Both the position numbers and the translations under genes were made by a program. This document shows positions 2,946 through 48,580 of a stretch of DNA of 53,949 bases, piece after piece. Every line of letters begins with the position of its first letter. Within the stretch, counting starts at the first letter, position 1. The stretch lies in the IMG/VR virus record IMGVR_UViG_3300032330_002160. One strand, given 5' to 3'. A model generated the notes under the pieces. That model was not told the DNA's origin. It ran no database searches and saw only the letters and a program-made list of their open reading frames with translations. This stretch comes from an uncultured virus (IMG/VR IMGVR_UViG_3300032330_002160). Taxonomy: Duplodnaviria; Heunggongvirae; Uroviricota; Caudoviricetes.

Positions 2946-3631
2946 GTGCTTATGGTGGGCCATCTATTCTTAGTTCCGGATTGGTGCTTAACTTGGATGC
3001 GGGGAACGCAAGAAGTTATCCGGGAACAGGAACAACTTGGACGGATCTTTCGGGTAATGGATATAATGGAACACTAATTAACAGTCCTAGTTATAGTTCT
3101 TTAAATGGTGGCGTTTTATCATTTAATGGTTCAAATACTAATGTTAATTTAGGTAATGCTTCAATATTTATGCCTACAGGAGCTATAACTGTTTCAATGT
3201 GGGTAAATTCAACGGTAGTTAATTCTTATAAAAAAATGTTTGTAACTGTTTCATCTGGATCTCAAACAATTGATGGAATATATATGTCTTTTGGGCCCAA
3301 TCCCTATTACAGTTATACTGGAATAGGAACAGCCTCAGGTGGAAATATTAGTGCTGGATATGGATCTCCATTATCTGCTAATACATGGTACAATATATGT
3401 GGTACTTATAATGGAACAATTATTTCGCATTATGTAAATGGAATATTAAGCGGAACAGCATCCCAAAATGGAGCTATTAAAAATGCTGGTATTGGAAGAA
3501 TATCAGGATATGATAATAATAATGAAACATGGTCAGGATACATAAATAATTTTTGCATGTGGAATAGAGCACTTTCTAGTATTGAAGTAATGCAAAATTT
3601 TAATGCCCTTCGTGGGCGGTACGCCCTATAG
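2942..3631 (+). CDS. LamG/concanavalin A-like lectin domain protein (paralog 3)
   Basis: Same terminal motifs; ATGA overlap with paralog 2. Confidence 0.85.
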   Translation: MSAYGGPSILSSGLVLNLDAGNARSYPGTGTTWTDLSGNGYNGTLINSPSYSSLNGGVLSFNGSNTNVNLGNASIFMPTGAITVSMWVNSTVVNSYKKMFVTVSSGSQTIDGIYMSFGPNPYYSYTGIGTASGGNISAGYGSPLSANTWYNICGTYNGTIISHYVNGILSGTASQNGAIKNAGIGRISGYDNNNETWSGYINNFCMWNRALSSIEVMQNFNALRGRYAL

Positions 3632-7280: not shown

Positions 7281-7823
7281 ATGGCATACAACTGGAAAAT
7301 CGAGATGGGCACCGTGTTAAGAGTTCTTCTTAACGATTTAACTGCCCCATACCAATATTCTGACGAAAGACTTTACCAACTTTTAACTGTCGCATCACAA
7401 CAAGTTCAAGCGGCAAATTTGTCATTCCCATTAGTATATAAAATTAATATTCCATCATTAACAATAACTCCAGATCCAACAGACTCTGATGCTGGAACTA
7501 GAGATGATAGTTTTATTAATTTAGTTACCTTAAAAGCAGCATGTATCACTAGTCATGGAGAGGCGAGGACGGCGGCGAAACAAGGCATATCCATCAGGGA
7601 TGGGTCATCGGCAATTGACTTGACCGGCCCCCTTCAAGGTCGTTTAAAATTAATTGAAATAGGTTATTGTGAATCCTATGAGCAATGTAAGTTAGAGTAC
7701 CAAACGGCTAGAATTGGGACAATTGCGGGGGCGACGATACTTACGCCGTTTAGGGTATTCGCGGGGTTCGGAGAGCAGGCGTATTACCCGATGGCTGAGG
7801 GAAGACAGACATTTATTCATTAG
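7281..7823 (+). CDS. Putative head-tail connector/adaptor (gp6-like) protein
   Basis: LRVLLND...YQYSDERLYQLL start resembles helical head-tail adaptors. AGGAG RBS; structural context. Confidence 0.45.
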   Translation: MAYNWKIEMGTVLRVLLNDLTAPYQYSDERLYQLLTVASQQVQAANLSFPLVYKINIPSLTITPDPTDSDAGTRDDSFINLVTLKAACITSHGEARTAAKQGISIRDGSSAIDLTGPLQGRLKLIEIGYCESYEQCKLEYQTARIGTIAGATILTPFRVFAGFGEQAYYPMAEGRQTFIH

Positions 7824-7833
7824 GAGATGTTTT

Positions 7834-8367
7834 ATGTCGGAAAAGACTTGTTCTAAGTGTAAGTCAGTAAAACCTTTGCATGATTTTATAAAATCAAAGC
7901 AGTCTAAAGATGGTCTTAGCTCTTGGTGCAAACAATGCAACAGAGCAAGAAATAGAAACAGTTATTATTTAGATCATCAAGCTCAAAAAGCAAGAGATAA
8001 AAATAAAAGAGATAAAAATAAAAAACATTATAGAGAATATCATAAAAAATATTATCATTCTGATAAATTAAGGCAGAGAAATTATCATTTAAAAAAATGT
8101 TATGGAATTACTCAAAAAGATTACGAAATGATGCTTAATTATCAACAAAATAAATGCGCCACTTGTCAAGAAGAACTTGGATCAAAATTATTTGTTGATC
8201 ACAATCATTCTACCGGAGAAATTAGAGGATTATTGTGTAACAGTTGTAATGTTGTTTTGGGCTACGCTAAAGAAAATCCAGATATTTTAAAACAAGCAAT
8301 TTCCTATCTAACCAATTATCCCGCCCAATTTCTCCCAATTAAAAGGACGCAATCATGCCTTATATAA
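7834..8367 (+). CDS. Endonuclease VII-family (HNH-like) free-standing homing endonuclease
   Basis: N-terminal Zn ribbon (CSKC...CKQC), YGIT..DY..M...Q..KCATC, VDHNHSTGEIRGLLCNSCNVVLG. ATG 7834 follows AGGAG. Confidence 0.9.
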   Translation: MSEKTCSKCKSVKPLHDFIKSKQSKDGLSSWCKQCNRARNRNSYYLDHQAQKARDKNKRDKNKKHYREYHKKYYHSDKLRQRNYHLKKCYGITQKDYEMMLNYQQNKCATCQEELGSKLFVDHNHSTGEIRGLLCNSCNVVLGYAKENPDILKQAISYLTNYPAQFLPIKRTQSCLI

Positions 8368-15451: not shown

Positions 15452-16549
15452 ATGCCAGCAAATCGTATTTTCTATGCTAGTCAAGCTGTTGGTTTACGTC
15501 ATAACCAAGGTAGTGCGCAATTTATGCGGATTCATGGTTTGCAAAGCGTTGGTGTGAATACCAACTTCAATCTTGATGCAGCTTATCAATTAGGCAATAT
15601 TGAGCTTTATGCTAATATCGAAGGTACTCCGGAAGTGGAAGTTACTCTCGAAAAATTACTTGATGGTCGCCCATTAATTTTAGATATGGCTACTGCTACT
15701 GGCGCTAATTCAGTAGCTACTTCAGGTGTTTTTGCAGGTCAAACCAATAAGACTTTAGTAGCTCGTTCTAATGCAAGAACTGACTTGCTTGTTTCTGTTG
15801 CTGATGATACCGTTGATAAAGTTGATACTAGCGTTGGTACTCCTTTAGCGCAATGCTTAGTTAGCGGTGCGTACCTTTCTCAGGTTTCCTACAAGATTCC
15901 TGTCGATGGAAACGCTTCTGAATCGGCCACTATTGTTGGTAATACCAAAATTTGGTATTCTGGTAATGCTGGTAATTTTACTCTTACTGCTACTCAAGTT
16001 GACCCAAATATCAGAATGAGCAGCCTGTATTCAGTTAGCGGTATTGCTCGTCGTCAACATGTTGACATTCTTAACTGTTTATGGCCTAGACAAATTCCCG
16101 GTGTTAATAGCACTGGTGGAATAACTAATGATACAGTTTCTGGATTTACTACTCACTTCCAAAATGTCAATATTAGCTGTCAGCTTGGTCGTGAATCATT
16201 AATGGAACTTGGTCGTAAGATGCCTTACTTCCGTTTCGTTAAATTTCCTGTCGAAGTTACTTCTGAATTTGAAGTTCTCCTTGGTGGTGCCGCTAATCAA
16301 GCTGGAGATTTCATCAGTGCTACAGAAGTTGGTACTGATGGCTCTGGTAATAATCTTCGATATGAAACCATTAAGATTCAACTTAAAGGTAATGATAATA
16401 CTATTCTTAATATATTTGACTTGGGCAGCAGAAATATGCTTACAACCGTTAACTACCAAGGTGGTGGTGTTGATGGAAGCAATGCGTCTGCAACCTATTC
16501 CTACCGCAACTTTAATAACTTAACGGTTAGCGGTAGCACTACAGTATAA
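15452..16549 (+). CDS. Major tail tube protein
   Basis: GLQSVGVNTNFNLD..YQLG..ELY and NISCQLGRESLMELGRKMPYFR (two tube-like repeats). Strong RBS, biased codons, terminator downstream, TMP nearby. Confidence 0.7.
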   Translation: MPANRIFYASQAVGLRHNQGSAQFMRIHGLQSVGVNTNFNLDAAYQLGNIELYANIEGTPEVEVTLEKLLDGRPLILDMATATGANSVATSGVFAGQTNKTLVARSNARTDLLVSVADDTVDKVDTSVGTPLAQCLVSGAYLSQVSYKIPVDGNASESATIVGNTKIWYSGNAGNFTLTATQVDPNIRMSSLYSVSGIARRQHVDILNCLWPRQIPGVNSTGGITNDTVSGFTTHFQNVNISCQLGRESLMELGRKMPYFRFVKFPVEVTSEFEVLLGGAANQAGDFISATEVGTDGSGNNLRYETIKIQLKGNDNTILNIFDLGSRNMLTTVNYQGGGVDGSNASATYSYRNFNNLTVSGSTTV

Positions 16550-16573
16550 AATATACTGTTATAAAATGGTTAT

Positions 16574-16604
16574 AATAAGGCGGGTATTACCCGCCTTATT
16601 TTTT
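16574..16604 (+). terminator. Rho-independent terminator
   Basis: AATAAGGCGGGTA-T-TACCCGCCTTATT followed by a T run. Confidence 0.85.
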
Positions 16605-17649
16605 GGAGAGTGATTTGTCGGAATTATTTTTATCTAGAATTATTTCTGGAAATTTATATTTTAAATATGATAATAAATCATATTGGATTAAATGTCCAAC
16701 TTCATTAGAAAAATATATGGCTCAAATTATTTATGAAGAATCATATAAAAATGCCCTAGAAGAAGGTTTGTATACAGACGATCAAATATTAAATATGTTA
16801 ATAGAAAATAAGATATGGAATGCCGAAAAAGAAAAAGAATTAGAAACAACAAAAAAAGATATTGATATACTTAAAGAAGAATTATTTAAAAATTATTTTA
16901 AATCAGAAACTCGCAATCGAACACGAAAAATGATTGAAATAGCCAAAATAAGAATAATGGAATTATTTGAAGAAAAAAATCAATATCATTATTTAAGTTG
17001 CTCTGGATATGCATCCACAGCTAGAACTAGATATTTAGTAGGATTTAGTCTACGGCGAAGTAATGGGGCGAAAGTTTATTCTGGCAAAAAGTTTATTAAT
17101 ACTCGCACAAAAATTTTAGATGCCGCTATTCTTTTTTACACAAAAAATGAATTAAATGAACATATATATCGTTCATTAGCTAGATCAGATCAATGGAAAA
17201 CTATTTGGAATACATCTAAATATACTAAAAGCTTATTTGGCTGCTCTTCTACAGAACTGACCCAAGAACAAATACAATTAATAAGTTGGTCTAATTTTTA
17301 TGATAATATTGGAGAAAGCCCAGATTGTCCAGAAGAAGAAATTATAAAAGATGATGACGCTTTAGATGGTTGGGCAATTATGCAACGCAAAAAAATGATT
17401 GCTGCTAGAAAACAAAAAACAGCAGATCAAGTATTAGGCAATTTACCAGAAGCTAAAGAAATATTCATACCAGCAGAAAATAAAGAAGATTATGATAAAA
17501 TTAATTCTATGAACGATTATGGGGCGAATATAATAAAGAAAGAAAGATTTGCAGCATTAAATAAGTATGGTACTTTACCAGAAGAATCTATGCCGGATTC
17601 TCAAAGGGAAATTGCAATGATTGCAAATCGAATGGGAGGGCCTAGGTAA
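16603..17649 (+). CDS. Hypothetical protein, possible tail assembly chaperone
   Basis: 348 aa, charged and helical, between tube and TMP. The start may be the in-frame TTG at 16615 after GGAG. Confidence 0.5.
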   Translation: MESDLSELFLSRIISGNLYFKYDNKSYWIKCPTSLEKYMAQIIYEESYKNALEEGLYTDDQILNMLIENKIWNAEKEKELETTKKDIDILKEELFKNYFKSETRNRTRKMIEIAKIRIMELFEEKNQYHYLSCSGYASTARTRYLVGFSLRRSNGAKVYSGKKFINTRTKILDAAILFYTKNELNEHIYRSLARSDQWKTIWNTSKYTKSLFGCSSTELTQEQIQLISWSNFYDNIGESPDCPEEEIIKDDDALDGWAIMQRKKMIAARKQKTADQVLGNLPEAKEIFIPAENKEDYDKINSMNDYGANIIKKERFAALNKYGTLPEESMPDSQREIAMIANRMGGPR

Positions 17650-18023
17650 TGGATGTGATGAAAAGTCTTGATTTGGCTTCTAGAAAGTATAAAGAGGAAG
17701 AGCAAAATAGACAATTTAATTTAGAAAAAAATTCTAAGTTAAAAATTCAAGAAGTAATTAGCACAAAATTAAGAACTACTTTTATTGGTGCATTAAGTTC
17801 TATAGAAGAAAGTTTTGGCTTTTTGTGGGGGGATGATGAAGATGATAGCAAACTAACACCTACTCAATTAAAGTGGAAAGAAATTTGGGTTGACTGTAGA
17901 ACTAGAATTTTAAATAACGGTAACAGTCAATTAAGAGCAATTAAAAACGAACTTAAAAATTATATTGTGGTTTTGGATCAAGGTAAAAAAATTATCTCTA
18001 AGGAGGATAATAATGGCTACTAA
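17649..18023 (+). CDS. Hypothetical protein
   Basis: TAATG overlap; GGGAGG upstream. Confidence 0.6.
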   Translation: MDVMKSLDLASRKYKEEEQNRQFNLEKNSKLKIQEVISTKLRTTFIGALSSIEESFGFLWGDDEDDSKLTPTQLKWKEIWVDCRTRILNNGNSQLRAIKNELKNYIVVLDQGKKIISKEDNNGY

Positions 18024-18891
18024 TAAGAAGGTTATTGAAGTTGAAATTGCGGGAAAGAAAACTGAATTGGCAGTTGTTCGCCCAAATGCAAAACAAAGGC
18101 AAGAAGGATTAAAATATTACAACAAGGCTTTTAGAGAAGCTTTGGAGAGTGGAGCAATTTTACGCCCCAAAATTGAAAGCGTTATGCGTGAGCAAAAGCT
18201 TTGGGATGATAATAAAGAAAATTCACTAAGGCAATTGCAAAATAAAATTGCTGAAAATGAAAAGAAGCTTAAGTCTGGAGGTATCAAATTATCTGAAGCA
18301 AGAGAAATTGCTATTTCTCTAAGAAAACAAAGGGCGGAAATTCGCACTTTGACATCTGAAAAAATTAATTTAGATAATAATAGTGCAGAAGCTCAAGCTG
18401 ATAATGCTCAGTTTAATTATTATGTTTCTGCTTGTACTGTTTATGGCGACAATGGAAAGCCATATTTTAAATCTTATGACGAATATATGTCTAAAGATGA
18501 TGATCCAGTAGTTTCCAAAGCTGCTTCTGCAATGGCTCAAATTATTTATAATCTTGAAGAAGATTATGATAAAAAGTTGCCAGAAAATGAGTTTTTAGTT
18601 AAATTTAAATTTGCCGATCAAAGTTTGCATTTAATTAATAAACAAGGAAAAAAAATTGACTCAGAAGGTCGATTAGTTGATGATGAGGGTCGATATATTG
18701 ATGAGAATGGTAATTACATTGACATCAATGGCAATAAGATCGACAAAGAAGGCAACTACATTGTTGAGCATACGCCTTTCTTGGATGAAGATGGCAAGCC
18801 ATTAATTGAAGATGAAAATCCTGTTATTCAAAAAGAAGAAAAAACTTTAATTGAAGAAAAGAAAGAATTACAAGAAGATAAGCCGGTGTAA
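18013..18891 (+). CDS. Putative tail assembly chaperone with 7-aa (I/V)DxxG repeats
   Basis: AGGAGG before ATG 18013. Coiled coil plus IDSEGRL/VDDEGRY/IDENGNY repeats; immediately before the TMP. Confidence 0.5.
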   Translation: MATNKKVIEVEIAGKKTELAVVRPNAKQRQEGLKYYNKAFREALESGAILRPKIESVMREQKLWDDNKENSLRQLQNKIAENEKKLKSGGIKLSEAREIAISLRKQRAEIRTLTSEKINLDNNSAEAQADNAQFNYYVSACTVYGDNGKPYFKSYDEYMSKDDDPVVSKAASAMAQIIYNLEEDYDKKLPENEFLVKFKFADQSLHLINKQGKKIDSEGRLVDDEGRYIDENGNYIDINGNKIDKEGNYIVEHTPFLDEDGKPLIEDENPVIQKEEKTLIEEKKELQEDKPV

Positions 18892-18918: not shown

Positions 18919-18957
18919 ACGGGGTACTACATAACAAAATGTGGGCCCCGTTTTTTT
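18919..18957 (+). terminator. Terminator-like hairpin in the TMP leader
   Basis: ACGGGGTACTACAT-AACAAA-ATGTGGGCCCCGT, running into the T7 at 18951-18957. Confidence 0.6.
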
Positions 18958-18970
18958 ATGGAGTTTTATA

Positions 18971-21900
18971 ATGGCTTATAATGTAACCGCTCAATTAAAT
19001 TTGCAATTAAATCCTCAAAGCATAAATCAAATAGCGCAAGCTTTAAACTCTATAACTAATGGAAGATCTATTGGAGGAAATTTATTTAATACTAATCAAA
19101 TTAGGGATGTAACAAATGAATTAAATAATACCAAAAATGCAATGATGCAATTCGGAGAGCAAGCTGGATTAGCAGCTAAAAGGTTTGGGGCTTTTACATT
19201 AGTTGCTGGAAGTTTAGTGCAAATTACACAAGGCTTTCGCTCAATGATTAGTGAGGCCGTTGCGTTTGATCGAGAAATGGTAAAATTAAAACAAGTTAGT
19301 AATGAAACTGCTGGAAGTGGTGTTGCAGCCATTAGACAAGAAATTGATAGATTATCTACAGGACTTGGTGTTTCTAGTAGTCAGTTAGCTAGAGTTTCAG
19401 TTATATTAAAACAAGCCAACTTAAATTTAGGTGAAACTAAAACAGCTCTTGAAGCTCTTGCATTATCAGCTTTAGCTCCAAACTTTGACTCTATGGAGAA
19501 AACTGCCGAAGGCGCAATTGCTGTATTAAAACAATTTAAAATACCAGTAGAAGAATTAAAATCATCTTTGGGATCTATTAACGCAGTTGCGGGTGAATTC
19601 GCTGTTGAAGCCTCTGACCTTATTGGCGTTATTCAAAGAACAGGTGGTGCATTTAAGGCTGCTGGCGGTAATCTTAATGAGCTCTTGGCCCTCTTTACAT
19701 CTGTTCGTCAAACTACTCGCGAAAGTGCTGAATCTATCTCTACCGGATTAAGAACTATTTTTACTCGTATTCAAAGAACAGGAACCGCCGATGCCCTTAG
19801 AGAAGTTGGTGTTAATCTTCGTTATACTAGAGATGAGGCATTAGCACTTGGAAATGTAAATTTAACTAGCCAGTTTGTTGGAGCGTATGAGGCAGTTAGA
19901 AGGCTTAGTGTAGCATTAAATCAAATTCCTTCAACTAGCCCAAAATTTGCTCAATTAGTTGAAGAACTTGGTGGATATCGTCAAATTTCTAAAGTTATCC
20001 CATTGATTCAAGAATTTTCAATTAGTCAAAACGCACTTAATGTTGCTATTACTGGCGGCTCTTCTCTCATGAATAGCGCAGCTGCTGCGCAAGGAAGTTT
20101 TGGAAATCGCTTAGATAAACTTAAAGAATCTTATTTGCAATTTGGTCGTGCTTTATTAGATAGTTCTTCTTTTAAAACTTTATTTACAATGTTTGAAACT
20201 GGCGCTAAAAGCGCATTAATGTTATTAGAGGCACTTAAGCCTTTACTGCCAATGCTTACTGTTTTTGCAACTATGAAAATAGCTCAAGGTATTGGGTCTT
20301 TTGGTGCTGGTTTTGTTAAAGGAGTTGCTCCAGTCAAGAAAAGTTCTGGTGGATTACTACATTTTAAAAAGGGTGGTATTGTTCCCGGAAGTGGTCATGG
20401 GGATATTGTTCCTGCGATGCTTGAGCCGGGAGAGATGGTTATTCCAAAGAGGATGGTAAAAAAATATTCTTTTGGTGGTCCTCATACTGCTGATATTGAT
20501 GAAGAAGCTTTAAATAATCCCTCTGGATTTCGTTCTTTTATGAAGGGATCCACAACTATTAATCCAAAAACTGGCAAATATAGAAAATTTTTCCACGGAA
20601 CAAAAGGTCAAGATTTTGATTATTTTAGCAATGCTCATGCTAGAAATACTTGGTTTGGTAGAGGTCATTATTTTTCTGCTGATGCAAAAGTTGCAAGTAG
20701 ATATTCTGAAACTGATGCTACGGCTGGCGGTTATGATCCGGGCGCAAGAGTAATGTCTACAACTTTACAAATGAAAAATCCATATACATGGAACTCAGAT
20801 AAATCTTTAAAAGATTTTATGACTAAGGGAGGAAAAAAAATAAAATCAATCAATGGACAATTTGATCAAAAAGATTGGGATGAAATTGTCAAAAAAGGCG
20901 TTCTCCCTGAAGACATTAGCCAAGGAACTTTAGACCATTTAAATAAAATATTTACTAAATTTCCTAGTATTGCTAAAAAATGGAATCAAGCATATAGCGA
21001 AAAAATAGATAAAGATGGAAATAAAATAATAAAAGGAATGTCTCCAGAATCTAAAATGAAATTTGTAGCTCATGGTGCAACTCAAACATTAAAAAAACAA
21101 GGATATGATTCCGTTAATGTCGATTATGGTCTTGGCAAAGATTATTTTAACGCAAGCACAGTTTTTCATCCAAAACAAATTAAAAGTTTGGGCAATGAAG
21201 GTAAGTGGGATCCTTCTTTGAAAGAGATAGGAAAAAATTTAGGTGGATTAATTCAAAAATTTGCTATTGGTGGAGATGTTGATGAATCTAAAATAAATAA
21301 TCCAGAAGGTTTTAGAGCTTTTATGAAAGGATCTAAAAATCTTAATGCTGAAACTGGAAAATATAAAAAGTTTTTTCATGGAACAAGAGGGGATAATTTT
21401 AACACATTTAATAATTCTAAAACTGGCGGAAATTTTTACGGAAAAGCTCATTATTTTACTCAAGATTATGATTCTGCTAGCTCATATTCTGGACAAGATA
21501 CAGTTAGAAATATAGGATCTAGAGTTCTTCCAACAACTTTACAAATGAAAAATCCATATTCATGGGATGAAGATAAATCAATTAATGATTTAGTTACAGC
21601 TGGAGAAGCATTAAAAGCGCGGAATGGAAAATTAGATAGAAGAACATGGAATGAAAGAATTGAAATGGGAGCTTTCCCAGAAGACATTAGCGAAGATACT
21701 TTAAATCATGCAAATAAAATTTTTGCAAGATTTCCAAGTATTGCTCAAGCTTTTAATAAGATGGATACTGCACAACAAAGAAAGTTTTTTTCTCATGTGG
21801 CTAGTAAGGCTTTGCAAAAACAAGGTTTTGATTCTATCAATATTGGAACTGATTATTCGGCAGTTTTTAAATCAAATCAAATTAAAAGCTTATATAATAC

Positions 21901-24900
21901 TGGAACATGGGATTCTAAAAATACAGACATAATGAAAAATTTAGGGGGATATATAGAGAGAAAAAGATTTATGGCCGGTAGTCCGGGCGGAGTACAAAAA
22001 ATAGCACCGCCTGTTCCTTCTAAATCTATAACAAAAGGAAGGGCATTAAGATCTATTTCTAATTTAGAAAATATTGCTAGCAATACAAAAATTTTAAATG
22101 GCGATGAAAAAGAAATTTTTCCCGCCAAATATCAGTTTAAAGCTCCTATCAATATGGTAAAACTATACATTTCACCTCAAAAAAAAGCAGGTTTAGCAAA
22201 AGGTGGAAGAGGATGGGAAAAATATATTGCAAAAACATTGGGTTATGAATTAGTGAATATTGATGAGAGTAAATTTCCTTATGACTTAAAAAAGAGTGAG
22301 GGGTATTATGCTGATGCAAAAGATATGGATTATAATTCGGCCATGGTAATAGAAGGAAGAAAAAAAGCGTTAAATATGTTATTGCTTAATAATTTTAAGA
22401 AATATGGATATAGGTATTCAGATATAAAGAAACAAACAATACAATTGCCAAAAAATCAACTTAGCGCACAATTAAATAACACAGAATTAAAAGTTGGTGG
22501 AACAGGAATCATCACAGCCAATGAATCAGATTTAATTTTTCCAACAACAAACCCAAATCCATCATTTCAAAAAAAAGCCTCAGGCGGATTCATTGTTCCC
22601 GGCGTTGGCGATACCGATTCTGTCCCTATGGACCTGCCTGTCGGTAGTTATGTTATCAAAAAATCTTCTACTAAAAAAATGGGTTTTGCGAATGGCGGTG
22701 TTGTTCCTGCTATTTTAACTCCGGGTGAATTAGTTATTGATCCAAAAACTGCTTCTGGCATTGGGCGAGCGAAGCTCGACCATATGAATAGAACTGGTCG
22801 TTCTGCTTTTGGCAAAGGTGGTAGAGTTGGATTTGCTTGGGGGGGAGGAACTGGAACTGGAAGTAGTGGAAATCCCATTAATGATCTTTTATCTTTTTCA
22901 GCATTTGATCAAATGGATTCTGGAATGAGATTAGCTGCTGAAAATCTTGCTAAATTAGCTTTAAGGACAGGATTAGCTAGTGATGTTCAAGAAAGTTATA
23001 ATGTAGCAATAAAGCAATTAAAAGATGTAACTGATAAAGTCATTAAAGAAAGAGAGCAATTAGCTTTTTTAGAATCTATGGGAGCTCAAGGTACAGCAGC
23101 ATATACACAACAAAAACTTAAATTAGCACAAGCAGAACAACAAGCAAATAATATTTTAAATAGAGCTAATCAAGCAAGAGTTCAAGATCAACCAGATCAA
23201 TTAGCAACAATTAGATCTAAAAAAGAATTACAAGATGCTGGCATTAGTCCAACTTCACAAGATTCTATAGATATGGCAGTTACTAGTACTGTTATAGCAA
23301 GAAAAAGAGGCGAAATAGAAAAAGAATATATGGAATCTGTAATGCTGCAAATAAAAGCAGCACATCCAAATTTGCAAGCGGATGAACAATTAGCTTTAGC
23401 AAAAAAAATGTATGAAGAAGCTTTAGTTAAAGGAACTATGGCGGTTAACTCTCAAACTGGTGCAATAGAAGGTGATACTAGATATAAAGCAAAAGGATTT
23501 GATGCTGCAAATTTATTACAACAAGAACAAAATGCTAATAAACCAAAAAAAGAATCCTTATTACGCAGAGGAATTTCGGCTGTTAAAGATCAGTGGAATA
23601 ATAATCCAGAAATGAAATCTATGGTAATGGGTGCTGGATTAAGTTATTTAGGTGAAGGTTTTGATAGATTAGCTGGAGATGCAAAAACTGCAAATGAATC
23701 AGGAACTACTAGTTCTTACATTTCATCAAAAGGAGCAGCTGGAAGTTTGCAAGGCGCATCTATGGGAATGCAAATGGGTTCTGTTCTTGGTCCTTATGGT
23801 ATGCTTGGAGGAGCAGTTCTTGGTGGGGCAGCTGGTTATTTAAGCTCTAGTAATACAGCCGAAAAAGAATTAAAAGATGCAAAAGCTTCTGAATCTCAAA
23901 GTAAACTTGAAGAAAAATTAAATAGTATCATAAAAAATCCAAAAGAAAAAGTAGATATGGCACTTATATCTGCTGCAATCAATGAAAATGCTCAAAATGC
24001 TAAGTCTTCAGCTGGACATATGACTATATCAGATAGTCTTGGATTTGGCAGAAGCAAATTAGACATACAACAAGATGTATTTCAAGCGTCAAGAGAAGCT
24101 AAACAAAAAACTGCTGGTCAAACAAGTTCAATTGTTACTTCTCAATTGTCTAAACAAATGATGTCTTCAACAACAGGAAAAGAAACAGATGCTCAACTTT
24201 ACGCATTAGGAACTGCTGCCGTAGAAGCATCAAGCGATTTTGAAAGTTTAGTAGAAGCTTCTAGACAAGTAGGAGAAAGTTTTGCAAAAGCAAGAGAAAG
24301 AATTGTTAAAGATGCAGCGAGTATGGCTAGGGCTGAAGCTGCTAAAAAAGCAGGACTTGAGTTAGAAAAAACTATAGGAAGATCTAATACGTTTTTGAAA
24401 ACTTTTGCCGACAATTTAGAAGGTGCTTCTGTAAGAGTGCAAAAATCTTTTTCTCAATTTGATAGCATAATGGCATCTTTAGATTCCGGATCTAGACAGA
24501 TGCAAAGTTACGAATTAGAAAAAAATGCTAAAGTTTTTAGTAACCCTACAGCTTATTCAAGTTCAGAATTTAAATCTACTATCGAATCAACATTTAGTAA
24601 TTATAGTCCAGATTTAACTCAAGGTCTTGCCAATCAATATGGGCCTATGGCTGATATTGGAAATAAATTACCTCAAATTTTAGCTGATTCTGTTAATGAT
24701 GCAAATCCTATAGAAGCGGTTGAAAGAAAATTATCTGAAATGGTTGGCGGAAAAGATGATCCAAATGTTAAAGCAATAATAAATAGTTTAACTGCAAAAT
24801 TAGGAGGAAAAGATAGTCTTAAAGATATTTCTGGCGATACAAGTAAATTAGCTGAAGAATTAATGAAGCCTATAATGGATCCAATGGCAAATTATGGGGC

Positions 24901-27634
24901 AAAAATTAATCAATTAAATTTAGAAAATATTAATAAATTATCAGCCGGATTTGCAAAATTAAATATTGCCACTTTAAAGTTAGTTGATGGAATTGAAAAA
25001 TCTGATAATTTACGATTAGATCAAATGCAAACAATGGCTTCTGCTCAAAGTATTGCATCTGGTCAAAGTTTGACTGGAGAATTAGGTCCAAATCCACAAT
25101 TACAATTAAATGTTGCAGCGTTACAACAATCTAGAGTATTGGGTATGGCTGGTCGCCCAGACTTATTGGGTAATACTGCTGGAATAGGTGAAGCATTAAG
25201 AGAAGCTCAAGATCGTCAACGGGAAATAGAAAAAAACCCAGTCGGATCTCCATTAGAACAAACAAAAGCTTTTAGTAATGCTGGAGCACAAGTTGATTTA
25301 TTTAGAAAAGCTTTGCAAGATTCAATACCAAAAATGCAACAAGTTGCAGGAGAATATACTAAACAAGCAAATGAAATGCAAAAACAAAGAATGGCTGGAG
25401 CAAGCTTAGCGAAAAAATTAGCCCTAGGAGGAAGAGAAACAAGGCAAGAATATAAATCTGGAGAAAAAGTTTTTAATAAATTAATATCTGGACAAATTAC
25501 TCAAGAACAAGTAATGAGAAGTCCTCGGCTAGCTAAACAATTAGAGTCTTTTCAACAAATGCATCAAGGTGTTGATTATCGAGGAATGAATGTTGAAGAT
25601 ACAATAAATAAAATGGTATATTCTGGGGCAGCTGAACAGCGTGGTTTTGGACCAACTGCTAAACAAGAAGCGGCTGTTAGAATGCAAGCTGCGCAAGCCC
25701 AAGGAATGGCAGCTGATGCTCAAGATCAATTGAATCTAAGTGCTGCTAAAGCTATTACAGCTGGAGAACAAGCTTTAGTTAGCAGTCAAGATAGTTTAAG
25801 GCTAGAAATAGAAAAATTAAACCTACAAATGCAATTAGCTCAAGATAAAACTAAAGAGCCTAGTGCTGAAATTAAAGCTGACATGAAAGGAAAAAGAGAA
25901 TTATTAGATTCAGTAGCCAATAATAAATTAACAAAAGAAGAAGAACAAATAAAACAAGATAAGGGTTTAGAAATAGCATCGTTTAGACAAACAAGAGAGC
26001 AAGAAAAAAAATATTCAGATGCCCAAACTAAATCAGAAGAATCTTTACAAGAAGCTTTGGATGCTGGACCAAAAGAAAATGCAAGGATGCAAGCTTTATT
26101 AAATAGTAAAAAAACAGTAGAAGATTATGGAAAAGGCACAACCACAGATGCCGTCAAAAAAAGACAACAACTAGCACAAGCAACTGGTTTAGAAGAAAAT
26201 GATGTTCATGCTATTTTAACACAAGCTCAAATGGGAATAGGAAATAATGGTAAACCAACTAGTTTTAGTAAAGCGTTAGAAATTCGACAGGGGATGGAAT
26301 CAGATAAACTTGATAGTCTAAAAGGAAGATTGGGAACTTCTGGACTTACAGTAGTAAATAAAGAAGATGCTGTTGCTAAAGCGAAAGCAGAAATTGAAGC
26401 AAAAGGTGGGTCTGAAAAAGTTGAAAAAGAAGTAAGTACATTTGAAAAAGCTGAATCTGAAAGAAAGGCAAGGATAAAAGAAAAAGAAGATAGAATAAAA
26501 GCTATAGAGGACATTAATAAACCTCCTCAAGAATTAATGGGTCCTCCGGCCCCACCAAACGGCAAACAAATTGCCGCAGTAAAAGTTTCTGCCGCCGATA
26601 CTCAACCAGTTGCTATTGCACAAAATCCTGCTGCAAGTGGCGTTGCTGCGCCAACGAAGCCTTCCATTTCAGAAAGGTTAAACGCTGAATTGCATTCTAA
26701 CGCAACATTACCACCACAACCAATGACTGTAGAAGAACGCAGTGCGTTTACAGCAAACCTTCAACAAGCTTCAGCTATAGCGCAAACTAGTGAGGCATCT
26801 TCGAGGCCTTCTACTGCACAAAATGAATTAATGGGACCTATGGACCTAATGGGTCCTCATGAGGCCCCTAATAATCAAAATTTACAAAATAAATTAATAG
26901 ACATAGGACCTCCTCTTCCGTCAGTAATAACTGAACCTTATGACGCAGAAACTACTTCAAGTAATGTAACAACAAATACTCCTACAAAAATGGAAACTTG
27001 GAAAAAATCGGGTGGCGATCCAAGATATAAACCATTGCCTCAATCTATGATTAGCGGTGGAGATCCAAGATTTAAACGATTACCTCAATCTATGACTAGT
27101 GGCGGAGATCCAAGATTTAGAAGAGTTCCTCAATTTTTTATGCCCGGAAAAAATCAATGGAAAGGTCCCGGAGCAGATACTACTGGCATAATGGGGCCGC
27201 CAGCTCCGCCTTCTATAAATCAAAATTCTGCAATAATGGGACCGCCAGCTCCACCTTCTATTGGTCAAAATAATGTTATGTCTAATAATGGTGCTGCACC
27301 TCAAAATAATCAAAGTAATACAAATTTAAATCAATCGACTTCTTTTAATCAAACAGCTGCGAGCTTTACTGGTTTTACAGCATCTTTTGATAATAGCATT
27401 GCTAATTTTAATTCTGCTATTGAAAATTTTGGTGTAAAAGTTGGAGAATTTGCAGCTGCCGTCTCGGTAATTCCATCATCTCTAACAGTAAATGGTGAAA
27501 TTGGAGCTAGCGTAACAACAAATGCTGCCGGAATAGTTACTCAAATATCCGAAGCCGTTAATGCTATGATAGCTAGACAAGTAATTAAATCATTGCCAAC
27601 ACCATCAATGGATGAAGCATCTAAACCTTCATAA
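18971..27634 (+). CDS. Tail tape measure protein (TP901-like N-terminal domain) with internal enzymatic domains
   Basis: About 2887 aa. FDREMVKLKQV..., INAVAGEFAVEASDL and TTRESAESISTGLRTIFTRIQ are tape-measure motifs. Long helical regions and a Gly-zipper segment. ATG 18971 follows GGAG. Confidence 0.9.
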   Translation: MAYNVTAQLNLQLNPQSINQIAQALNSITNGRSIGGNLFNTNQIRDVTNELNNTKNAMMQFGEQAGLAAKRFGAFTLVAGSLVQITQGFRSMISEAVAFDREMVKLKQVSNETAGSGVAAIRQEIDRLSTGLGVSSSQLARVSVILKQANLNLGETKTALEALALSALAPNFDSMEKTAEGAIAVLKQFKIPVEELKSSLGSINAVAGEFAVEASDLIGVIQRTGGAFKAAGGNLNELLALFTSVRQTTRESAESISTGLRTIFTRIQRTGTADALREVGVNLRYTRDEALALGNVNLTSQFVGAYEAVRRLSVALNQIPSTSPKFAQLVEELGGYRQISKVIPLIQEFSISQNALNVAITGGSSLMNSAAAAQGSFGNRLDKLKESYLQFGRALLDSSSFKTLFTMFETGAKSALMLLEALKPLLPMLTVFATMKIAQGIGSFGAGFVKGVAPVKKSSGGLLHFKKGGIVPGSGHGDIVPAMLEPGEMVIPKRMVKKYSFGGPHTADIDEEALNNPSGFRSFMKGSTTINPKTGKYRKFFHGTKGQDFDYFSNAHARNTWFGRGHYFSADAKVASRYSETDATAGGYDPGARVMSTTLQMKNPYTWNSDKSLKDFMTKGGKKIKSINGQFDQKDWDEIVKKGVLPEDISQGTLDHLNKIFTKFPSIAKKWNQAYSEKIDKDGNKIIKGMSPESKMKFVAHGATQTLKKQGYDSVNVDYGLGKDYFNASTVFHPKQIKSLGNEGKWDPSLKEIGKNLGGLIQKFAIGGDVDESKINNPEGFRAFMKGSKNLNAETGKYKKFFHGTRGDNFNTFNNSKTGGNFYGKAHYFTQDYDSASSYSGQDTVRNIGSRVLPTTLQMKNPYSWDEDKSINDLVTAGEALKARNGKLDRRTWNERIEMGAFPEDISEDTLNHANKIFARFPSIAQAFNKMDTAQQRKFFSHVASKALQKQGFDSINIGTDYSAVFKSNQIKSLYNTGTWDSKNTDIMKNLGGYIERKRFMAGSPGGVQKIAPPVPSKSITKGRALRSISNLENIASNTKILNGDEKEIFPAKYQFKAPINMVKLYISPQKKAGLAKGGRGWEKYIAKTLGYELVNIDESKFPYDLKKSEGYYADAKDMDYNSAMVIEGRKKALNMLLLNNFKKYGYRYSDIKKQTIQLPKNQLSAQLNNTELKVGGTGIITANESDLIFPTTNPNPSFQKKASGGFIVPGVGDTDSVPMDLPVGSYVIKKSSTKKMGFANGGVVPAILTPGELVIDPKTASGIGRAKLDHMNRTGRSAFGKGGRVGFAWGGGTGTGSSGNPINDLLSFSAFDQMDSGMRLAAENLAKLALRTGLASDVQESYNVAIKQLKDVTDKVIKEREQLAFLESMGAQGTAAYTQQKLKLAQAEQQANNILNRANQARVQDQPDQLATIRSKKELQDAGISPTSQDSIDMAVTSTVIARKRGEIEKEYMESVMLQIKAAHPNLQADEQLALAKKMYEEALVKGTMAVNSQTGAIEGDTRYKAKGFDAANLLQQEQNANKPKKESLLRRGISAVKDQWNNNPEMKSMVMGAGLSYLGEGFDRLAGDAKTANESGTTSSYISSKGAAGSLQGASMGMQMGSVLGPYGMLGGAVLGGAAGYLSSSNTAEKELKDAKASESQSKLEEKLNSIIKNPKEKVDMALISAAINENAQNAKSSAGHMTISDSLGFGRSKLDIQQDVFQASREAKQKTAGQTSSIVTSQLSKQMMSSTTGKETDAQLYALGTAAVEASSDFESLVEASRQVGESFAKARERIVKDAASMARAEAAKKAGLELEKTIGRSNTFLKTFADNLEGASVRVQKSFSQFDSIMASLDSGSRQMQSYELEKNAKVFSNPTAYSSSEFKSTIESTFSNYSPDLTQGLANQYGPMADIGNKLPQILADSVNDANPIEAVERKLSEMVGGKDDPNVKAIINSLTAKLGGKDSLKDISGDTSKLAEELMKPIMDPMANYGAKINQLNLENINKLSAGFAKLNIATLKLVDGIEKSDNLRLDQMQTMASAQSIASGQSLTGELGPNPQLQLNVAALQQSRVLGMAGRPDLLGNTAGIGEALREAQDRQREIEKNPVGSPLEQTKAFSNAGAQVDLFRKALQDSIPKMQQVAGEYTKQANEMQKQRMAGASLAKKLALGGRETRQEYKSGEKVFNKLISGQITQEQVMRSPRLAKQLESFQQMHQGVDYRGMNVEDTINKMVYSGAAEQRGFGPTAKQEAAVRMQAAQAQGMAADAQDQLNLSAAKAITAGEQALVSSQDSLRLEIEKLNLQMQLAQDKTKEPSAEIKADMKGKRELLDSVANNKLTKEEEQIKQDKGLEIASFRQTREQEKKYSDAQTKSEESLQEALDAGPKENARMQALLNSKKTVEDYGKGTTTDAVKKRQQLAQATGLEENDVHAILTQAQMGIGNNGKPTSFSKALEIRQGMESDKLDSLKGRLGTSGLTVVNKEDAVAKAKAEIEAKGGSEKVEKEVSTFEKAESERKARIKEKEDRIKAIEDINKPPQELMGPPAPPNGKQIAAVKVSAADTQPVAIAQNPAASGVAAPTKPSISERLNAELHSNATLPPQPMTVEERSAFTANLQQASAIAQTSEASSRPSTAQNELMGPMDLMGPHEAPNNQNLQNKLIDIGPPLPSVITEPYDAETTSSNVTTNTPTKMETWKKSGGDPRYKPLPQSMISGGDPRFKRLPQSMTSGGDPRFRRVPQFFMPGKNQWKGPGADTTGIMGPPAPPSINQNSAIMGPPAPPSIGQNNVMSNNGAAPQNNQSNTNLNQSTSFNQTAASFTGFTASFDNSIANFNSAIENFGVKVGEFAAAVSVIPSSLTVNGEIGASVTTNAAGIVTQISEAVNAMIARQVIKSLPTPSMDEASKPS
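20490..21950 (+). repeat. Tandem duplication of an ADP-ribosyltransferase-like domain inside the TMP
   Basis: Two ~230-250 aa copies: FFHGT, GxxHYF, A..YS, LQMKNPY, QG(Y/F)DS, VF..xQIKS. A 27-nt block is identical at 20759 and 21533. Confidence 0.85.
27011..27270 (+). repeat. 45-nt coding repeats in the TMP C-terminus (GGDPR x3; IMGPPAPPSI x2)
   Basis: Visible directly in DNA and protein. Confidence 0.85.
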
Positions 27635-27643
27635 GGAGCAATC

Positions 27644-28408
27644 ATGCCAGACGGAATTGTAGGATCAAATGATGGTTTTTTTGGAAATTTCCTTCTGGGA
27701 TATAATCCCAATGCCGATATTTACATTAACAATAGTAATTTAAATGCTTTTATTCAGGGGGCAAGTCCAGCAAACAGTGGAAATGTTAATCTTAGTTTAA
27801 GATCTTTAGGTGTTGGAGAAAATACAATTAATCTCTACACACAAGGAGCATTCATTGGTTCTGGATTATTAAATATATCTACTGAAGGTTTTATTCCAAA
27901 TAGTTCAAATAACTTAAATATTAGTCTTGATGGATCAACATCTAATAAATATAATTATTCAAAAAATAATATTAATTTTTATATTAATGGTAAAAAAAGA
28001 TCGTCAGAAGACTCTTTAAATATTTACTTAAATAGTTCAATGACTGATCTTAAAAATGATTCAATTAATATAACAATTGATAATCCAGAAAGTAAATATA
28101 ATAAAAAAGCAGATATAAATTTATCAATATTAAGCGAAATAATAAAATATGAAGAAACATTAAATTTATCAATACAAAATACAGGAAATATTACTTCCGA
28201 TAATGTAAATATTTCTGTTTTTGGTTATCCTATTAAGGAAACTGGAATAAATATGTCTATCTCAGGAGCACTTCCAAACCAATCAAACTCTTACATGAAT
28301 ATGATGATTCAAGGTCCAAAAAATAATGCCACAGGATTAAATTTAACAATAAAACCATCATTGCTTATGGATAATTATGTTAATATTAATATAATAGGAG
28401 GAAGATAA
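27644..28408 (+). CDS. Asn/Ile-rich repetitive virion protein
   Basis: AGGAG RBS; repeated (I/L)N(L/I)xI strands suggest a beta-solenoid. Confidence 0.55.
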   Translation: MPDGIVGSNDGFFGNFLLGYNPNADIYINNSNLNAFIQGASPANSGNVNLSLRSLGVGENTINLYTQGAFIGSGLLNISTEGFIPNSSNNLNISLDGSTSNKYNYSKNNINFYINGKKRSSEDSLNIYLNSSMTDLKNDSINITIDNPESKYNKKADINLSILSEIIKYEETLNLSIQNTGNITSDNVNISVFGYPIKETGINMSISGALPNQSNSYMNMMIQGPKNNATGLNLTIKPSLLMDNYVNINIIGGR

Positions 28409-40413: not shown

Positions 40414-40458
40414 CATGCTATAATTTAGTAAGAATACTTACTAAATGAGGACATGTTA
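40411..40458 (+). promoter_or_regulatory. Extended -10 element plus nested inverted repeat
   Basis: TGCTATAAT at 40416-40424; ATTTAGTAAG-AATA-CTTACTAAAT at 40423-40446. Confidence 0.5.
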
Positions 40459-41492
40459 TGCTATTGACTATCGGTATGGCCACATATGATGATTTTGATG
40501 GAGTTTATTTTTCTGTACAAGCCTTAAGAATGTATCACGATCTAACTGATTGTGAAATTTTAGTTGTAGATAGTCAACCTGAGCGAAGAGAAGATCTAGA
40601 AAATTTTTGTCGTAGTGCTGGGGCTAAATATATTAAAGCTCCGCACTTACAAGGTACATCGGCTCCAAGACAAGCTGTTTTTGATAATGCTTCTGGAGAT
40701 TTTGTTGTATGTATTGATTGTCATGTTTTATTAGAAAAAGATGTTATTTCAAAATTAAAAGAATATATTAAACAAAATCCTGAATCTAAAGATTTGCTTC
40801 AAGGTCCTTTATGGTATGATGATTTAAGAAATGTTTCTAGCCATTTTGAACCTGTCTGGAATGATCATATGTGGGGAACATGGAATACTGATCCCAAGGT
40901 ATATGGGCGTGAGCCGTTTGATATTCCAATGCAAGGGCTTGGTATGTTTGGAATGAAGAGATCGGCTTGGCCGGGGTTTAATAAGCTTTTCAGGGGCTTT
41001 GGTGGGGAAGAAGGCTATATCCATGAGAAAGTTCGTCAGAGAGGTGGCAGGAGCCTTTGCTTTCCATGGATGAAGTGGGTTCATAGGTTTAATCGTCCTC
41101 ATGGTGTCAAATATCGTTTAACCTTGGAAGATAGAATTTTTAATTATATTATTGGCCATCAAGAATTAGATATGCCTCTTTCTCCAATCATTAATCATTT
41201 TAAAGATAAAATTGCTCACGATAAATTAATCGCAATTATGACTGAAACTGCAAAATATGACGCAAAAGGTCAAATGTTGCGAGGTAGTGTTGCAGCTATG
41301 GCGGCTGTTAGAAAAATGAAGTGTGTAAGTCTTGGTCCTGTTATTGAAAGGGCGGATTGTAATTGTGCTGCCAAATTTATTCATAGTTGTGAAAAACATG
41401 GAAAATGCCGCACACTAATAAATCTTGGAGACAATATTAGAAATTGTCAGGAGTGCGATGATTATGAGCCAGAAGACCCAGTTGAATCTTAA
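40458..41492 (+). CDS. Glycosyltransferase family 2 with C-terminal Cys-rich module
   Basis: LTIGMATYDD, EILVVDS, ASGDFVVCIDCHVLL and GFNKLFRGFGGEE are GT-A motifs. Confidence 0.85.
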   Translation: MLLTIGMATYDDFDGVYFSVQALRMYHDLTDCEILVVDSQPERREDLENFCRSAGAKYIKAPHLQGTSAPRQAVFDNASGDFVVCIDCHVLLEKDVISKLKEYIKQNPESKDLLQGPLWYDDLRNVSSHFEPVWNDHMWGTWNTDPKVYGREPFDIPMQGLGMFGMKRSAWPGFNKLFRGFGGEEGYIHEKVRQRGGRSLCFPWMKWVHRFNRPHGVKYRLTLEDRIFNYIIGHQELDMPLSPIINHFKDKIAHDKLIAIMTETAKYDAKGQMLRGSVAAMAAVRKMKCVSLGPVIERADCNCAAKFIHSCEKHGKCRTLINLGDNIRNCQECDDYEPEDPVES

Positions 41493-45411: not shown

Positions 45412-45413
45412 GA

Positions 45414-48575: not shown

Positions 48576-48580
48576 TATCT

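What the first reader, a model, noticed from the sequence alone, without database searches (positions are those of the whole stretch)
20336..22850. Tape measure protein carries a GG-delimited cassette of enzymatic cargo domains (candidate virion-delivered effector system)
Seen: about 840 aa of non-helical sequence interrupt the TMP. The order is KSSGG-FKKGG-[VPGxGxGDxVPAMLEPGE spacer]-YSFGG-[ART-like 1]-KNLGG-FAIGG-[ART-like 2]-KNLGG-FMAGSPGG-[nuclease-like]-KASGG-[VPGVGDTDSVP spacer]-FANGG-[VPAILTPGE]-FGKGG-FAWGG. Every domain boundary coincides with a (K/F/Y)xxGG motif. Known: TMPs are ejected into the host at infection, are often proteolytically processed, and single FAxGG/VPAxLxxGE motifs occur in other TMPs. 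Inference: this is a plug-in polyprotein in which GG linkers act as cleavage or insertion sites, delivering anti-defence or takeover enzymes before any phage gene is expressed.
Basis: partly seen in the sequence, partly recalled or inferred. Interest (0 to 1): 0.85.

Follow-up and report, generated by a model that had tools for sequence, protein, structure and literature searches.

The report
Tape measure carrying swappable enzyme cassettes
The tail 'ruler' protein of this uncultured phage carries two ADP-ribosyltransferase domains and a probable nuclease that related phages exchange at a repeated short joint, a joint resembling the mapped cut site of phage T5's ruler, so the tail may double as a magazine of enzymes fired into the host; cutting and delivery are untested.

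Summary
The tape measure protein (TMP, 18941-27634) carries two ART-PolyVal domains above Pfam's cut-off, with the H-Y-D residues intact, and a third segment with an E..PD..DxK motif. That segment belongs to a nuclease-like family found in 61 of 249 related TMPs; its fold search was inconclusive.

Cargo swaps at the joints. Eight of 13 close relatives have one ART instead of two, slot 3 has four allele groups, and 108 of 177 breakpoints lie within 10 aa of a linker (21% expected).

The joint is a known TMP module (lambda, TM4, JBD30). A linker profile trained only on these TMPs ranks T5's mapped cut (R1127|AEGG) first in pb2. The likely cut is therefore before A-x-G-G, not after GG.

Cargo is cysteine-free like the ruler (1 Cys in 178,526 aa). 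The nuclease-like and ART cargo lies only on the head-proximal side of the helical core.

Best reading: a polymorphic, tail-stored polyprotein, cut into enzymes that enter just ahead of the DNA. Cleavage, delivery and targets are inferred. This scan noted the architecture before on two other genomes. I found no paper describing it in 10 searches.

The parts
18941..27634 (+). Tape measure protein, 2897 aa (probable start 18971); no cysteine
   Evidence: Pfam PhageMin_Tail aa 133-343 above cut-off; PHROG 28 and 4211 TMP; 0 Cys; largest ORF of the window
19337..19969 (+). Conserved N-terminal TMP core (PF10145)
   Evidence: aa 10-510 finds 2428 proteins at E<=1e-10 among 8000 candidates scored
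20339..20479 (+). Joint 1: K|SSGG, F|KKGG plus module (helix-truncated), Y|SFGG
   Evidence: module HMM aa 473-516; linker profile scores 13.5, 21.2, 14.8
20480..21232 (+). Cargo 1: ART-PolyVal domain; H552, Y577, D723
   Evidence: PF18760 E 1.2e-15; residues invariant in 20 of 20 copies
21233..21274 (+). Joint 2: K|NLGG..F|AIGG
   Evidence: the 234-aa ART2 unit is missing exactly from after this KNLGG to after the next in P0001, P0004, P0009
21275..21934 (+). Cargo 2: second ART-PolyVal domain, 50% identical to cargo 1; H813, Y838, D964; optional
   Evidence: PF18760 E 1.5e-14; 111 of 220 identical; present in 5 of 13 close relatives
21935..21994 (+). Joint 3: K|NLGG..RKRF|MAGSPGG
   Evidence: homology to relatives with another slot-3 allele ends at aa 1013-1020
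21995..22567 (+). Cargo 3: PD-(D/E)xK nuclease-like domain; E1093, D1115, D1125, K1127; swappable
   Evidence: motif invariant in alignment A3; profile link to a second allele family, 62%, E 7.5e-5; family of 62 domains in 61 of 249 TMPs, 0 reversed decoys; fold inconclusive
22568..22846 (+). Joint 4: double module (K|ASGG.., F|ANGG..) plus F|GKGG and F|AWGG
   Evidence: homology resumes at aa 1210; 93 double modules in 76 of 121 TMPs
22847..26740 (+). Helical core shared across the family, with a glycine-zipper stretch (aa 1601-1642); candidate ruler and trans-envelope channel (inferred)
   Evidence: largest segment cluster, 116 of 121 TMPs; Gly-zipper_Omp E 0.0023, below cut-off
15452..18891 (+). 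Four conserved upstream genes (candidate tail tube and assembly chaperones; assignment by position only)
   Evidence: homologues in 96, 107, 108 and 119 of 126 related loci; no Pfam, PHROG or PDB hit

Best explanation
A polymorphic, tail-stored effector polyprotein. (1) Shown: a conserved TMP module with an x|A-x-G-G head has been repeated, and whole domains are gained, lost and replaced between its copies. (2) Shown by sequence: cargo 1 and 2 are H-Y-D ADP-ribosyltransferase domains. Probable: cargo 3 is a PD-(D/E)xK nuclease. (3) Inferred: the whole chain is packed unfolded in a very long tail. (4) Inferred from T5: it is cut during tail maturation just before each A-x-G-G (P1 = F, Y, K, R or L), giving pieces of about 29, 25 and 22 kDa that stay in the tube. 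(5) Inferred: on infection the chain leaves C-terminus first, the helical core forms the channel, and the head-proximal enzyme pieces pass into the cytoplasm just ahead of the DNA and refold. The ARTs then modify host proteins or nucleic acids, and the nuclease attacks host or competitor nucleic acid. Host counter-pressure drives the allele turnover. My odds per step: swaps 0.95, ART fold 0.9, nuclease fold 0.75, packaged and ejected 0.75, cut at the joints 0.55, cytoplasmic takeover or anti-defence role 0.45.
For: Turnover: ART2 is absent from 8 of 13 close relatives, with an exact joint-to-joint deletion in 3 of the 4 examined. Slot 3 falls into four allele groups, and the window's group has no BLAST hit (E<=1e-4) to the other three. 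The window's slot-3 family sits in slot 1 of two distant TMPs. 108 of 177 merged breakpoints lie within 10 aa of a linker GG against 21% at random. In L015 versus L111 DNA identity drops and resumes at the GG codons. Enzymes. Relatives carry other enzyme families above Pfam cut-off: R-S-E ARTs (P0084, P0110, L103, L119, L130) and SNase (L127). Cut site: a profile from 971 linker contexts ranks T5 R1127 first in pb2 (8.9, next 4.5), and R-A-x-G-G is kept in 7 of 7 T5-family TMPs. Packaging: 0 Cys in 2897 aa, 1 in 178,526 aa of non-core segments, against 1.4% in 45 other window ORFs and 0.87% in other ORFs of the loci. Order: 44 nuclease-like, 20 H-Y-D ART, 2 SNase and 2 R-S-E motifs lie upstream of the core and 0 in 134,491 aa downstream.
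Against: No cleavage, activity or virion data exist for this family. The T5 match covers only the 11-residue head (profile-profile probability 3.9%; the best of 30 shuffles was 1.7%). T5 has just 5 GG sites, 32 of 500 shuffled pb2 sequences give a top score as high, and I chose the register after seeing the T5 site. JBD30's authors read the same module as a structural hook and guessed a cut after it (PMC11445458). 52 of 177 breakpoints lie over 25 aa from a linker, breakpoints are not independent, and conserved joints attract alignment ends. Cargo 3 has no Pfam or PHROG hit; its model has pLDDT 62 with the catalytic stretch under 50 and a best Z of 3.0. Only 63 of 116 TMPs have a recognisable enzyme motif in cassette 1, and 4 of 92 loci segments reach a Pfam cut-off. 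Lack of Cys is general to TMPs (T5, lambda, YomI, TM4). The nuclease profile was seeded from cassette 1, which favours the upstream count.
Confidence: 0.5

Rival explanations
1. Uncut carrier. The module is a structural hook or folding spacer that also serves as a recombination site. The cargo is ejected as part of the intact TMP and works tethered to the channel or membrane.
For: JBD30 residues 1022-1066, the stretch my profile hits, were predicted to fold as a hook (PMC11445458). The module model shows beta strands plus helices. Residues downstream of the GG (D, V, L, G) are nearly invariant, more than a cut site needs. Cys exclusion and position fit this reading equally well.
Against: Many joints are bare x|A-x-G-G heads with no module body (joints 2 and 3), so what is always kept is the head, which matches T5's mapped cut.
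Confidence: 0.25
2. The cargo is cut out during tail assembly, is not packaged, and acts late in the producing cell (host DNA breakdown, exclusion of competitors).
For: T5 and lambda TMPs are cut during morphogenesis. Releasing 839 aa would shorten a very long tail.
Against: T5 pb2C stays in the tail after cutting. Cytoplasm-only enzymes have no reason to lack Cys, and other enzymes of the window carry 1-5% Cys.
Confidence: 0.1
3. Selfish or neutral passengers. In-frame homing-type endonucleases and hitch-hiking domains lodge at conserved motifs of a length-tolerant gene with no benefit to the phage.
For: PD-(D/E)xK homing endonucleases exist (PMC3424549). The nuclease-like family is the commonest cargo, nearly always one per TMP (60 of 61). 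16 of 116 TMPs have a first cassette of 150 aa or less.
Against: ARTs, SNase and HExxH domains cannot home. Catalytic residues are kept and Cys is purged throughout. The slot-3 family was found only inside TMPs (5 hits).
Confidence: 0.1
4. The module is an intein/HINT-like self-cleaving unit.
For: The spacing F..V..L..GE.V resembles HINT block A as I recall it (memory, no call).
Against: No Cys anywhere, and P1' is Ala in 56% of 971 contexts. No Hint family among 63 modules at E<=1.
Confidence: 0.04

Closest known systems
Phage T5 TMP pb2, cut into pb2* and pb2C (PMC10038345)
   Same: TMP cut during morphogenesis at R|A-E-G-G, releasing an enzyme-bearing piece that stays in the tail and is proposed to be expelled; no Cys.
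   Different: One cut, C-terminal, periplasmic peptidoglycan target. Here there are about ten heads, internal and exchangeable cargo, and cytoplasm-type enzymes. Only the head of the module is shown to be shared.
Polyvalent proteins (Iyer et al. 2017, PMC5512222)
   Same: Disparate enzymes in one polypeptide, ART-PolyVal H-Y-D domains in several copies, zincin-like HExxH domains in relatives, proposed injection with DNA and later processing.
   Different: The carrier is the TMP ('tape' occurs 0 times in that paper's main text; supplements not readable). Domains are bounded by a repeated joint, and the window's cassette has no HExxH peptidase.
Phage lambda gpH, cut into gpH* and gpHC (PMC12617516)
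   Same: Module at 731-775 plus a second head at 778; cut in this region.
   Different: Single module and no known enzyme. The site is unmapped; my prediction F733|A734 gives 79.8 and 12.5 kDa against about 78 and 14 reported.
Tme of the Streptomyces davawensis contractile injection system (PMC11126660)
   Same: TMP-related chain with a demonstrated endonuclease domain loaded in a tail-like tube.
   Different: Bacterial machine, single C-terminal nuclease; I did not test it for the joint.
T4 Alt (as described in PMC5512222)
   Same: Virion-packaged ART injected with the DNA to redirect host RNA polymerase.
   Different: R-S-E clade, head-packaged and stand-alone. R-S-E ARTs do occur as cargo in relatives.
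Polymorphic toxin systems (Zhang et al. 2012, PMC3482391)
   Same: Toxin-type domains diversified by recombination at a conserved boundary motif.
   Different: Cargo is internal and multiple, with no orphan cassettes seen and no evident immunity gene.
SPbeta YomI/CwlP and mycobacteriophage TM4 gp17 TMPs
   Same: Cys-free TMPs. YomI has SLT and M23 domains; TM4 has the module at 700-748.
   Different: YomI's enzymes (1425-1674) are not bracketed by the joint (its only strong head is at 2143). These enzymes act on the cell wall.

Membership tests
Tape measure proteins (PF10145 type) | PhageMin_Tail domain above cut-off | tested here: met
   69.6 bits, cut-off 33.2
Tape measure proteins (PF10145 type) | Largest gene of a tail module, downstream of tube and chaperone genes | tested here: inconclusive
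   Largest ORF with conserved upstream genes, but these have no family or PDB hit
Tape measure proteins (PF10145 type) | Length sets tail length | not testable with these tools
   uncultured phage
ART-PolyVal (PF18760) | Profile score above curated cut-off | tested here: met
   58.9 and 55.3 bits against 31.2
ART-PolyVal (PF18760) | H in strand 1, Y in strand 2, D in strand 5 (PMC5512222) | tested here: met
   H552/Y577/D723 and H813/Y838/D964, invariant in 20 of 20 copies; strand assignment by motif, no model built
ART-PolyVal (PF18760) | NAD+-dependent transfer and its substrate | not testable with these tools
   needs an assay
PD-(D/E)XK nucleases | Helix-1 Glu, Asp at start of strand 2, (D/E)xK in strand 3 (PMC3424549) | tested here: met
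   E1093, D1115, D1125, K1127; same pattern across 62 domains
PD-(D/E)XK nucleases | Restriction-endonuclease-like core fold | tested here: inconclusive
   pLDDT 62; best Z 3.0 (paFAN1, rmsd 3.6, 81 aligned). Four of the 6 rows are FAN1 or AF1548 (their PD-(D/E)xK fold is recalled). No Foldseek hit; Atlas leads 0.84 and 0.77, below its trust level
Polyvalent proteins | Two or more enzyme domains of unrelated activity in one virion-associated polypeptide | tested here: met
   ART plus nuclease-like cargo in 14 of 116 TMPs
Polyvalent proteins | Zincin-like MPTase in the same chain (about 36% of described members) | tested here: inconclusive
   No HExxH in the window's cassette; HExxH in cassette 1 of 18 of 116 relatives; not a strict requirement
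Polyvalent proteins | Delivery with the DNA | not testable with these tools
   inferred from TMP biology and Cys exclusion
Polymorphic toxin systems | Variable toxin at the C-terminus | tested here: not met
   cargo is internal; the last ~160 aa are conserved
Polymorphic toxin systems | Orphan cassettes next to the main gene | tested here: not met
   10 module hits outside the main frame piece in 7 of 126 loci. Six loci are frame-broken continuations at the TMP end; L033 starts 1.2 kb further on (only +/-10 kb seen)
Polymorphic toxin systems | Adjacent immunity gene | not tested
   downstream gene 27644-28408 has no confident family hit
HINT/intein autoprocessing domains | N-terminal Cys/Ser nucleophile and Hint profile match | tested here: not met
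   0 Cys; Ala at P1' in 56%; no Hint hit in 63 modules
T5/lambda-type processed TMPs | x|A-x-G-G head at the cut | tested here: met
   T5 site ranks first in pb2; homology beyond 11 residues not shown
T5/lambda-type processed TMPs | Cleavage during morphogenesis with fragments retained | not testable with these tools
   needs virions

The most novel reading that the evidence does not exclude
x|A-x-G-G is a general maturation-cleavage signal of tail-lumen and ejection proteins (T5 R1127; predicted lambda F733, TM4 L703, JBD30 module head, and the N-terminal leader of podovirus F116 p58 and Dartukuta gp56). A large family of aquatic 130-220 kb phages has multiplied it to turn the ruler into an ordered magazine: envelope-side pieces first, channel next, and exchangeable ARTs and nucleases last, entering the cytoplasm before any phage gene is read.
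Probability: 0.38. Interest if true: 0.92.

Novelty: new variant of a known kind. Interest (0 to 1): 0.78.

Why it matters
TMP enzymes described so far mostly act on the cell wall. If this reading is right, the tail lumen is a second route, beside the capsid, for delivering cytoplasmic effectors at time zero, and the joints mark hundreds of candidate anti-host domains, most with no family yet. It also gives a residue-level, testable prediction for a long-open question: PMC12617516 states that lambda gpH's cut site and protease are unknown, and the profile points to F733|A734. A natural plug-in slot in a TMP would also be useful for protein delivery.

Tried and rejected
Cleavage after GG (ubiquitin- or bacteriocin-like): disfavoured, because the only mapped site I found lies four residues earlier. 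HINT-like module: rejected on residues and Pfam; its fold model was weak (pLDDT 57.6, best Z 3.1, no viral hit at E<=0.001), so absence there proves nothing. Cargo-3 fold: inconclusive. Free-standing sources of the cargo: ART2 at 121-385 aa gave no hit among 120 candidates (longer forms not searched); the double module at 54-174 aa gave 1 fragment; cargo 3 gave 5 hits, all TMPs. ART2 against the PDB: best PARP14, E 0.063. DNA of the closest relatives was not found, so nucleotide-level junctions come from other lineages: 14 locus pairs with gaps, of which L015/L105, L015/L111, L037/L098 and L010/L012 have both ends within 9 aa of linkers, 4 have one end, and 6 have neither. No whole genome or sequencing runs were available, which leaves population-level variants and expression open. 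Host: genome bins holding relatives are discordant (18 loci, 3 Gemmataceae), so the host is unknown. Alignment A4 misaligned the double module and was dropped for A5 and A6. Literature: 10 searches found no paper on this architecture; the library lacks most subscription papers, and the supplements of PMC5512222 could not be read and might list TMP fusions.


Full report
Observation. The finding lies in one ORF, 18941-27634 (+), of 2897 aa. It has a PhageMin_Tail domain at aa 133-343 and two ART-PolyVal stretches, and PHROGs call it a tape measure protein. All named motifs are present in the stated order. [FYK]xxGG occurs 10 times in the 839-aa stretch; 0 of 2000 shuffles reach 10 (mean 1.99), though the pattern was picked after the fact. 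The longer 'spacers' are a single conserved module, F-A-x-G-G-x-V-P-G..D-T-V-P-A-x-L-T-P-G-E-F-V followed by a helix. It occurs one to seven times in each of 121 related TMPs.

Turnover. A search with aa 10-510 gave 2428 TMPs among 8000 scored candidates; I analysed the 120 listed. Thirteen are close (73-100% over the query region) yet range from 2641 to 3853 aa. ART2 is present in 5 of the 13. In P0001, P0004 and P0009 the 45 residues up to KNLGG match the end of ART1 (44-45 of 45) and the next 14 match the window's joint 3 (10-14 of 14), so exactly one joint-to-joint unit is missing; in P0007 slot 3 differs as well. Slot 3 falls into four allele groups, and the window's group has no BLAST hit to the others. 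Homology ends at aa 1013-1020 and resumes at aa 1210. The same slot-3 family sits directly after module 1 in two distant TMPs. Across pairs with at least 80% N-terminal identity, 108 of 177 merged breakpoints lie within 10 aa of a linker GG (21% expected), while 52 lie more than 25 aa away. These breakpoints are not independent, and conserved joints attract alignment ends. DNA from another lineage answers part of that worry: between L015 and L111 the flanks are nearly identical, including third positions, and identity drops and resumes at the GG codons. Of 14 locus pairs with gaps, 4 have both ends at joints, 4 have one and 6 have neither.

Cargo. Cargo 1 and 2 pass the PF18760 cut-off and keep the H, Y and D that PMC5512222 gives for this clade (passage) in 20 of 20 copies. 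Cargo 3 has no Pfam or PHROG hit but carries E1093, D1115, D1125 and K1127. It aligns over that core with a second allele family (62%, E 7.5e-5). An iterated profile, seeded with both families, collects 62 domains in 61 of 249 TMPs or TMP pieces, with no reversed-sequence decoy, and the pattern G..[FW]E..xD..(D/E)xK holds throughout. That is the canonical PD-(D/E)xK site (PMC3424549, passage). The fold test was inconclusive: pLDDT 62, best Z 3.0 to FAN1, no Foldseek hit, and Atlas leads below its trust level. Relatives carry R-S-E ARTs and an SNase above cut-off, and HExxH motifs are enriched (16 of 329 segments against 0.34 shuffled). Most cargo is unassigned: 4 of 92 new loci segments reach a Pfam cut-off.

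What the joint is. The module profile hits solved TMPs: 8zdo twice, lambda 731-775 (E 6.6e-4) and 8rk3 1015-1064. It also hits TM4 gp17 700-748 and the N-terminus of F116 p58 and Dartukuta gp56. T5 pb2's cut was mapped by mass spectrometry after R1127, and the fragment stays in the tail (PMC10038345, passages). The sequence there is R|AEGG. A profile built from 971 linker contexts of the uncultured TMPs alone ranks that position first in pb2, 8.9 against 4.5, and R-A-x-G-G is kept in 7 of 7 T5-family TMPs. Limits: pb2 has only 5 GG sites; 32 of 500 shuffles reach the same top score somewhere; only the 11-residue head aligns between the two families (3.9%, best shuffle 1.7%); and the register was set with the T5 site in view. 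For lambda, whose site is stated to be unknown (PMC12617516, passages), the profile proposes F733|A734, giving 79.8 and 12.5 kDa against about 78 and 14 reported. Against a pure cut signal, the JBD30 paper predicts the module as a hook and guesses a cut after it (PMC11445458, passages). YomI's SLT and M23 domains are not bracketed by joints. My own model of the module was weak and matched nothing.

Is the cargo packaged? The TMP has no cysteine in 2897 aa, and non-core segments of 121 TMPs have 1 in 178,526 aa, against 1.4% in the 45 other window ORFs and 0.87% in other ORFs of the loci (related sequences inflate the totals). T5, lambda, YomI and TM4 TMPs also have none. The cargo therefore obeys the ruler's own constraint, which fits a chain stored unfolded and passed through an oxidising space (inference). 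Position is ordered: in 116 TMPs with the helical core located, 44 nuclease-like, 20 H-Y-D ART, 2 SNase and 2 R-S-E motifs lie upstream of the core and none in 134,491 aa downstream, while HExxH occurs on both sides (23 upstream, 8 in the core, 14 downstream). The nuclease profile was seeded upstream, which favours that count. TMP C-termini sit in the baseplate and leave first, so cassette 1 would leave last, after the channel-forming core and just ahead of the DNA. That is where enzymes needing NAD+ or nucleic acid would have to go (inference).

Mechanism and rivals. I give 0.5 to the cut-and-deliver polyprotein, 0.25 to an uncut carrier with structural joints, 0.1 each to release in the producing cell and to selfish or neutral passengers, and 0.04 to HINT-like self-cleavage. 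Shown here: the architecture, the swaps, ART family membership, the nuclease motif, Cys exclusion and position. Inferred: cutting, ejection, compartment and targets. 'Anti-defence' is a guess by analogy with T4 Alt and polyvalent proteins.

Known versus new. It works like a polyvalent protein loaded through the tail and processed like T5 pb2. It is a TMP by family, and it fails two defining tests for polymorphic toxin systems (C-terminal toxin, orphan cassettes). Tme shows that a TMP-related chain can carry an active nuclease (PMC11126660, abstract and Discussion; lead from e1-6061732). 'Tape' occurs 0 times in the main text of PMC5512222 (supplements unreadable) and 0 times in the first 300,000 characters of PMC3482391. 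I also read passages of PMC7824862 and PMC10240207, which add only general TMP points. Ten searches (listings only) found no description of joint-delimited, exchangeable TMP cargo. The scan's own notes recorded the architecture on two other genomes, without family-level enzyme calls or the T5 register; three further look-ups returned nothing. The host is unknown.

Verdict: a real feature, a new variant of known kinds, interest 0.78; if the general cleavage-signal reading holds (0.38), 0.92.

Noticed in passing
L048:12025-14052 (F116 p58) and L050:7920-9902 (Dartukuta gp56): The double module sits at the N-terminus of a Cys-free protein just upstream of a giant methyltransferase-bearing gene in two F116-like phages (podovirus morphology recalled). 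F116 p58 has an in-frame upstream Met that would add the head motif, so its annotated start may be too late.
   Followed up: partly
L049:7143-9737 (S-CRM01 g61): Cyanomyovirus gene after gp26 and gp51 with the module at 284-342, a phage lysozyme domain at 620-723 and no Cys; probably its TMP.
   Followed up: partly
L132 (lambda gpH) 733 and 778; L140 (TM4 gp17) 703 and 762: Top-scoring heads give residue-level cut predictions for model phages.
   Followed up: partly
window 27002-27115 and about 26500-27300: Three SGGDPR repeats and several MGPP repeats in a Pro/Gln-rich C-terminal stretch, where 9 of 13 close relatives have two more modules and further cargo; possibly a decayed second cassette.
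   Followed up: no
P0020 aa 510-1150, P0016 aa 506-1390, P0084 aa 556-1816: By eye, other cargo types: SNase-like, J-domain-like, glycine-zipper stretches, and up to three HExxH domains beside an R-S-E ART (only the ART is Pfam-confirmed).
   Followed up: no
window 40458-41492 (+) and 44677-52006 (-): Cluster of glycosyltransferases, an NTP transferase and PhoH; possible DNA or capsid glycosylation, which could protect phage DNA from its own nuclease cargo (speculation).
   Followed up: no
window 37464-39668: 734-aa protein with 28 Cys and no family hit.
   Followed up: no
window 1555-3631: Three tandem paralogues matching phrog_24074 and phrog_8510 virion proteins.
   Followed up: no
window 7714-8367 (+) and 42812-43594 (-): Endonuclease VII-like and HNH genes, likely free-standing homing endonucleases.
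   Followed up: no
L010, L011, L012, L030, L065, L111: TMP reading frames broken by a frame change with modules continuing in another frame; assembly error or programmed shift not distinguished.
   Followed up: no
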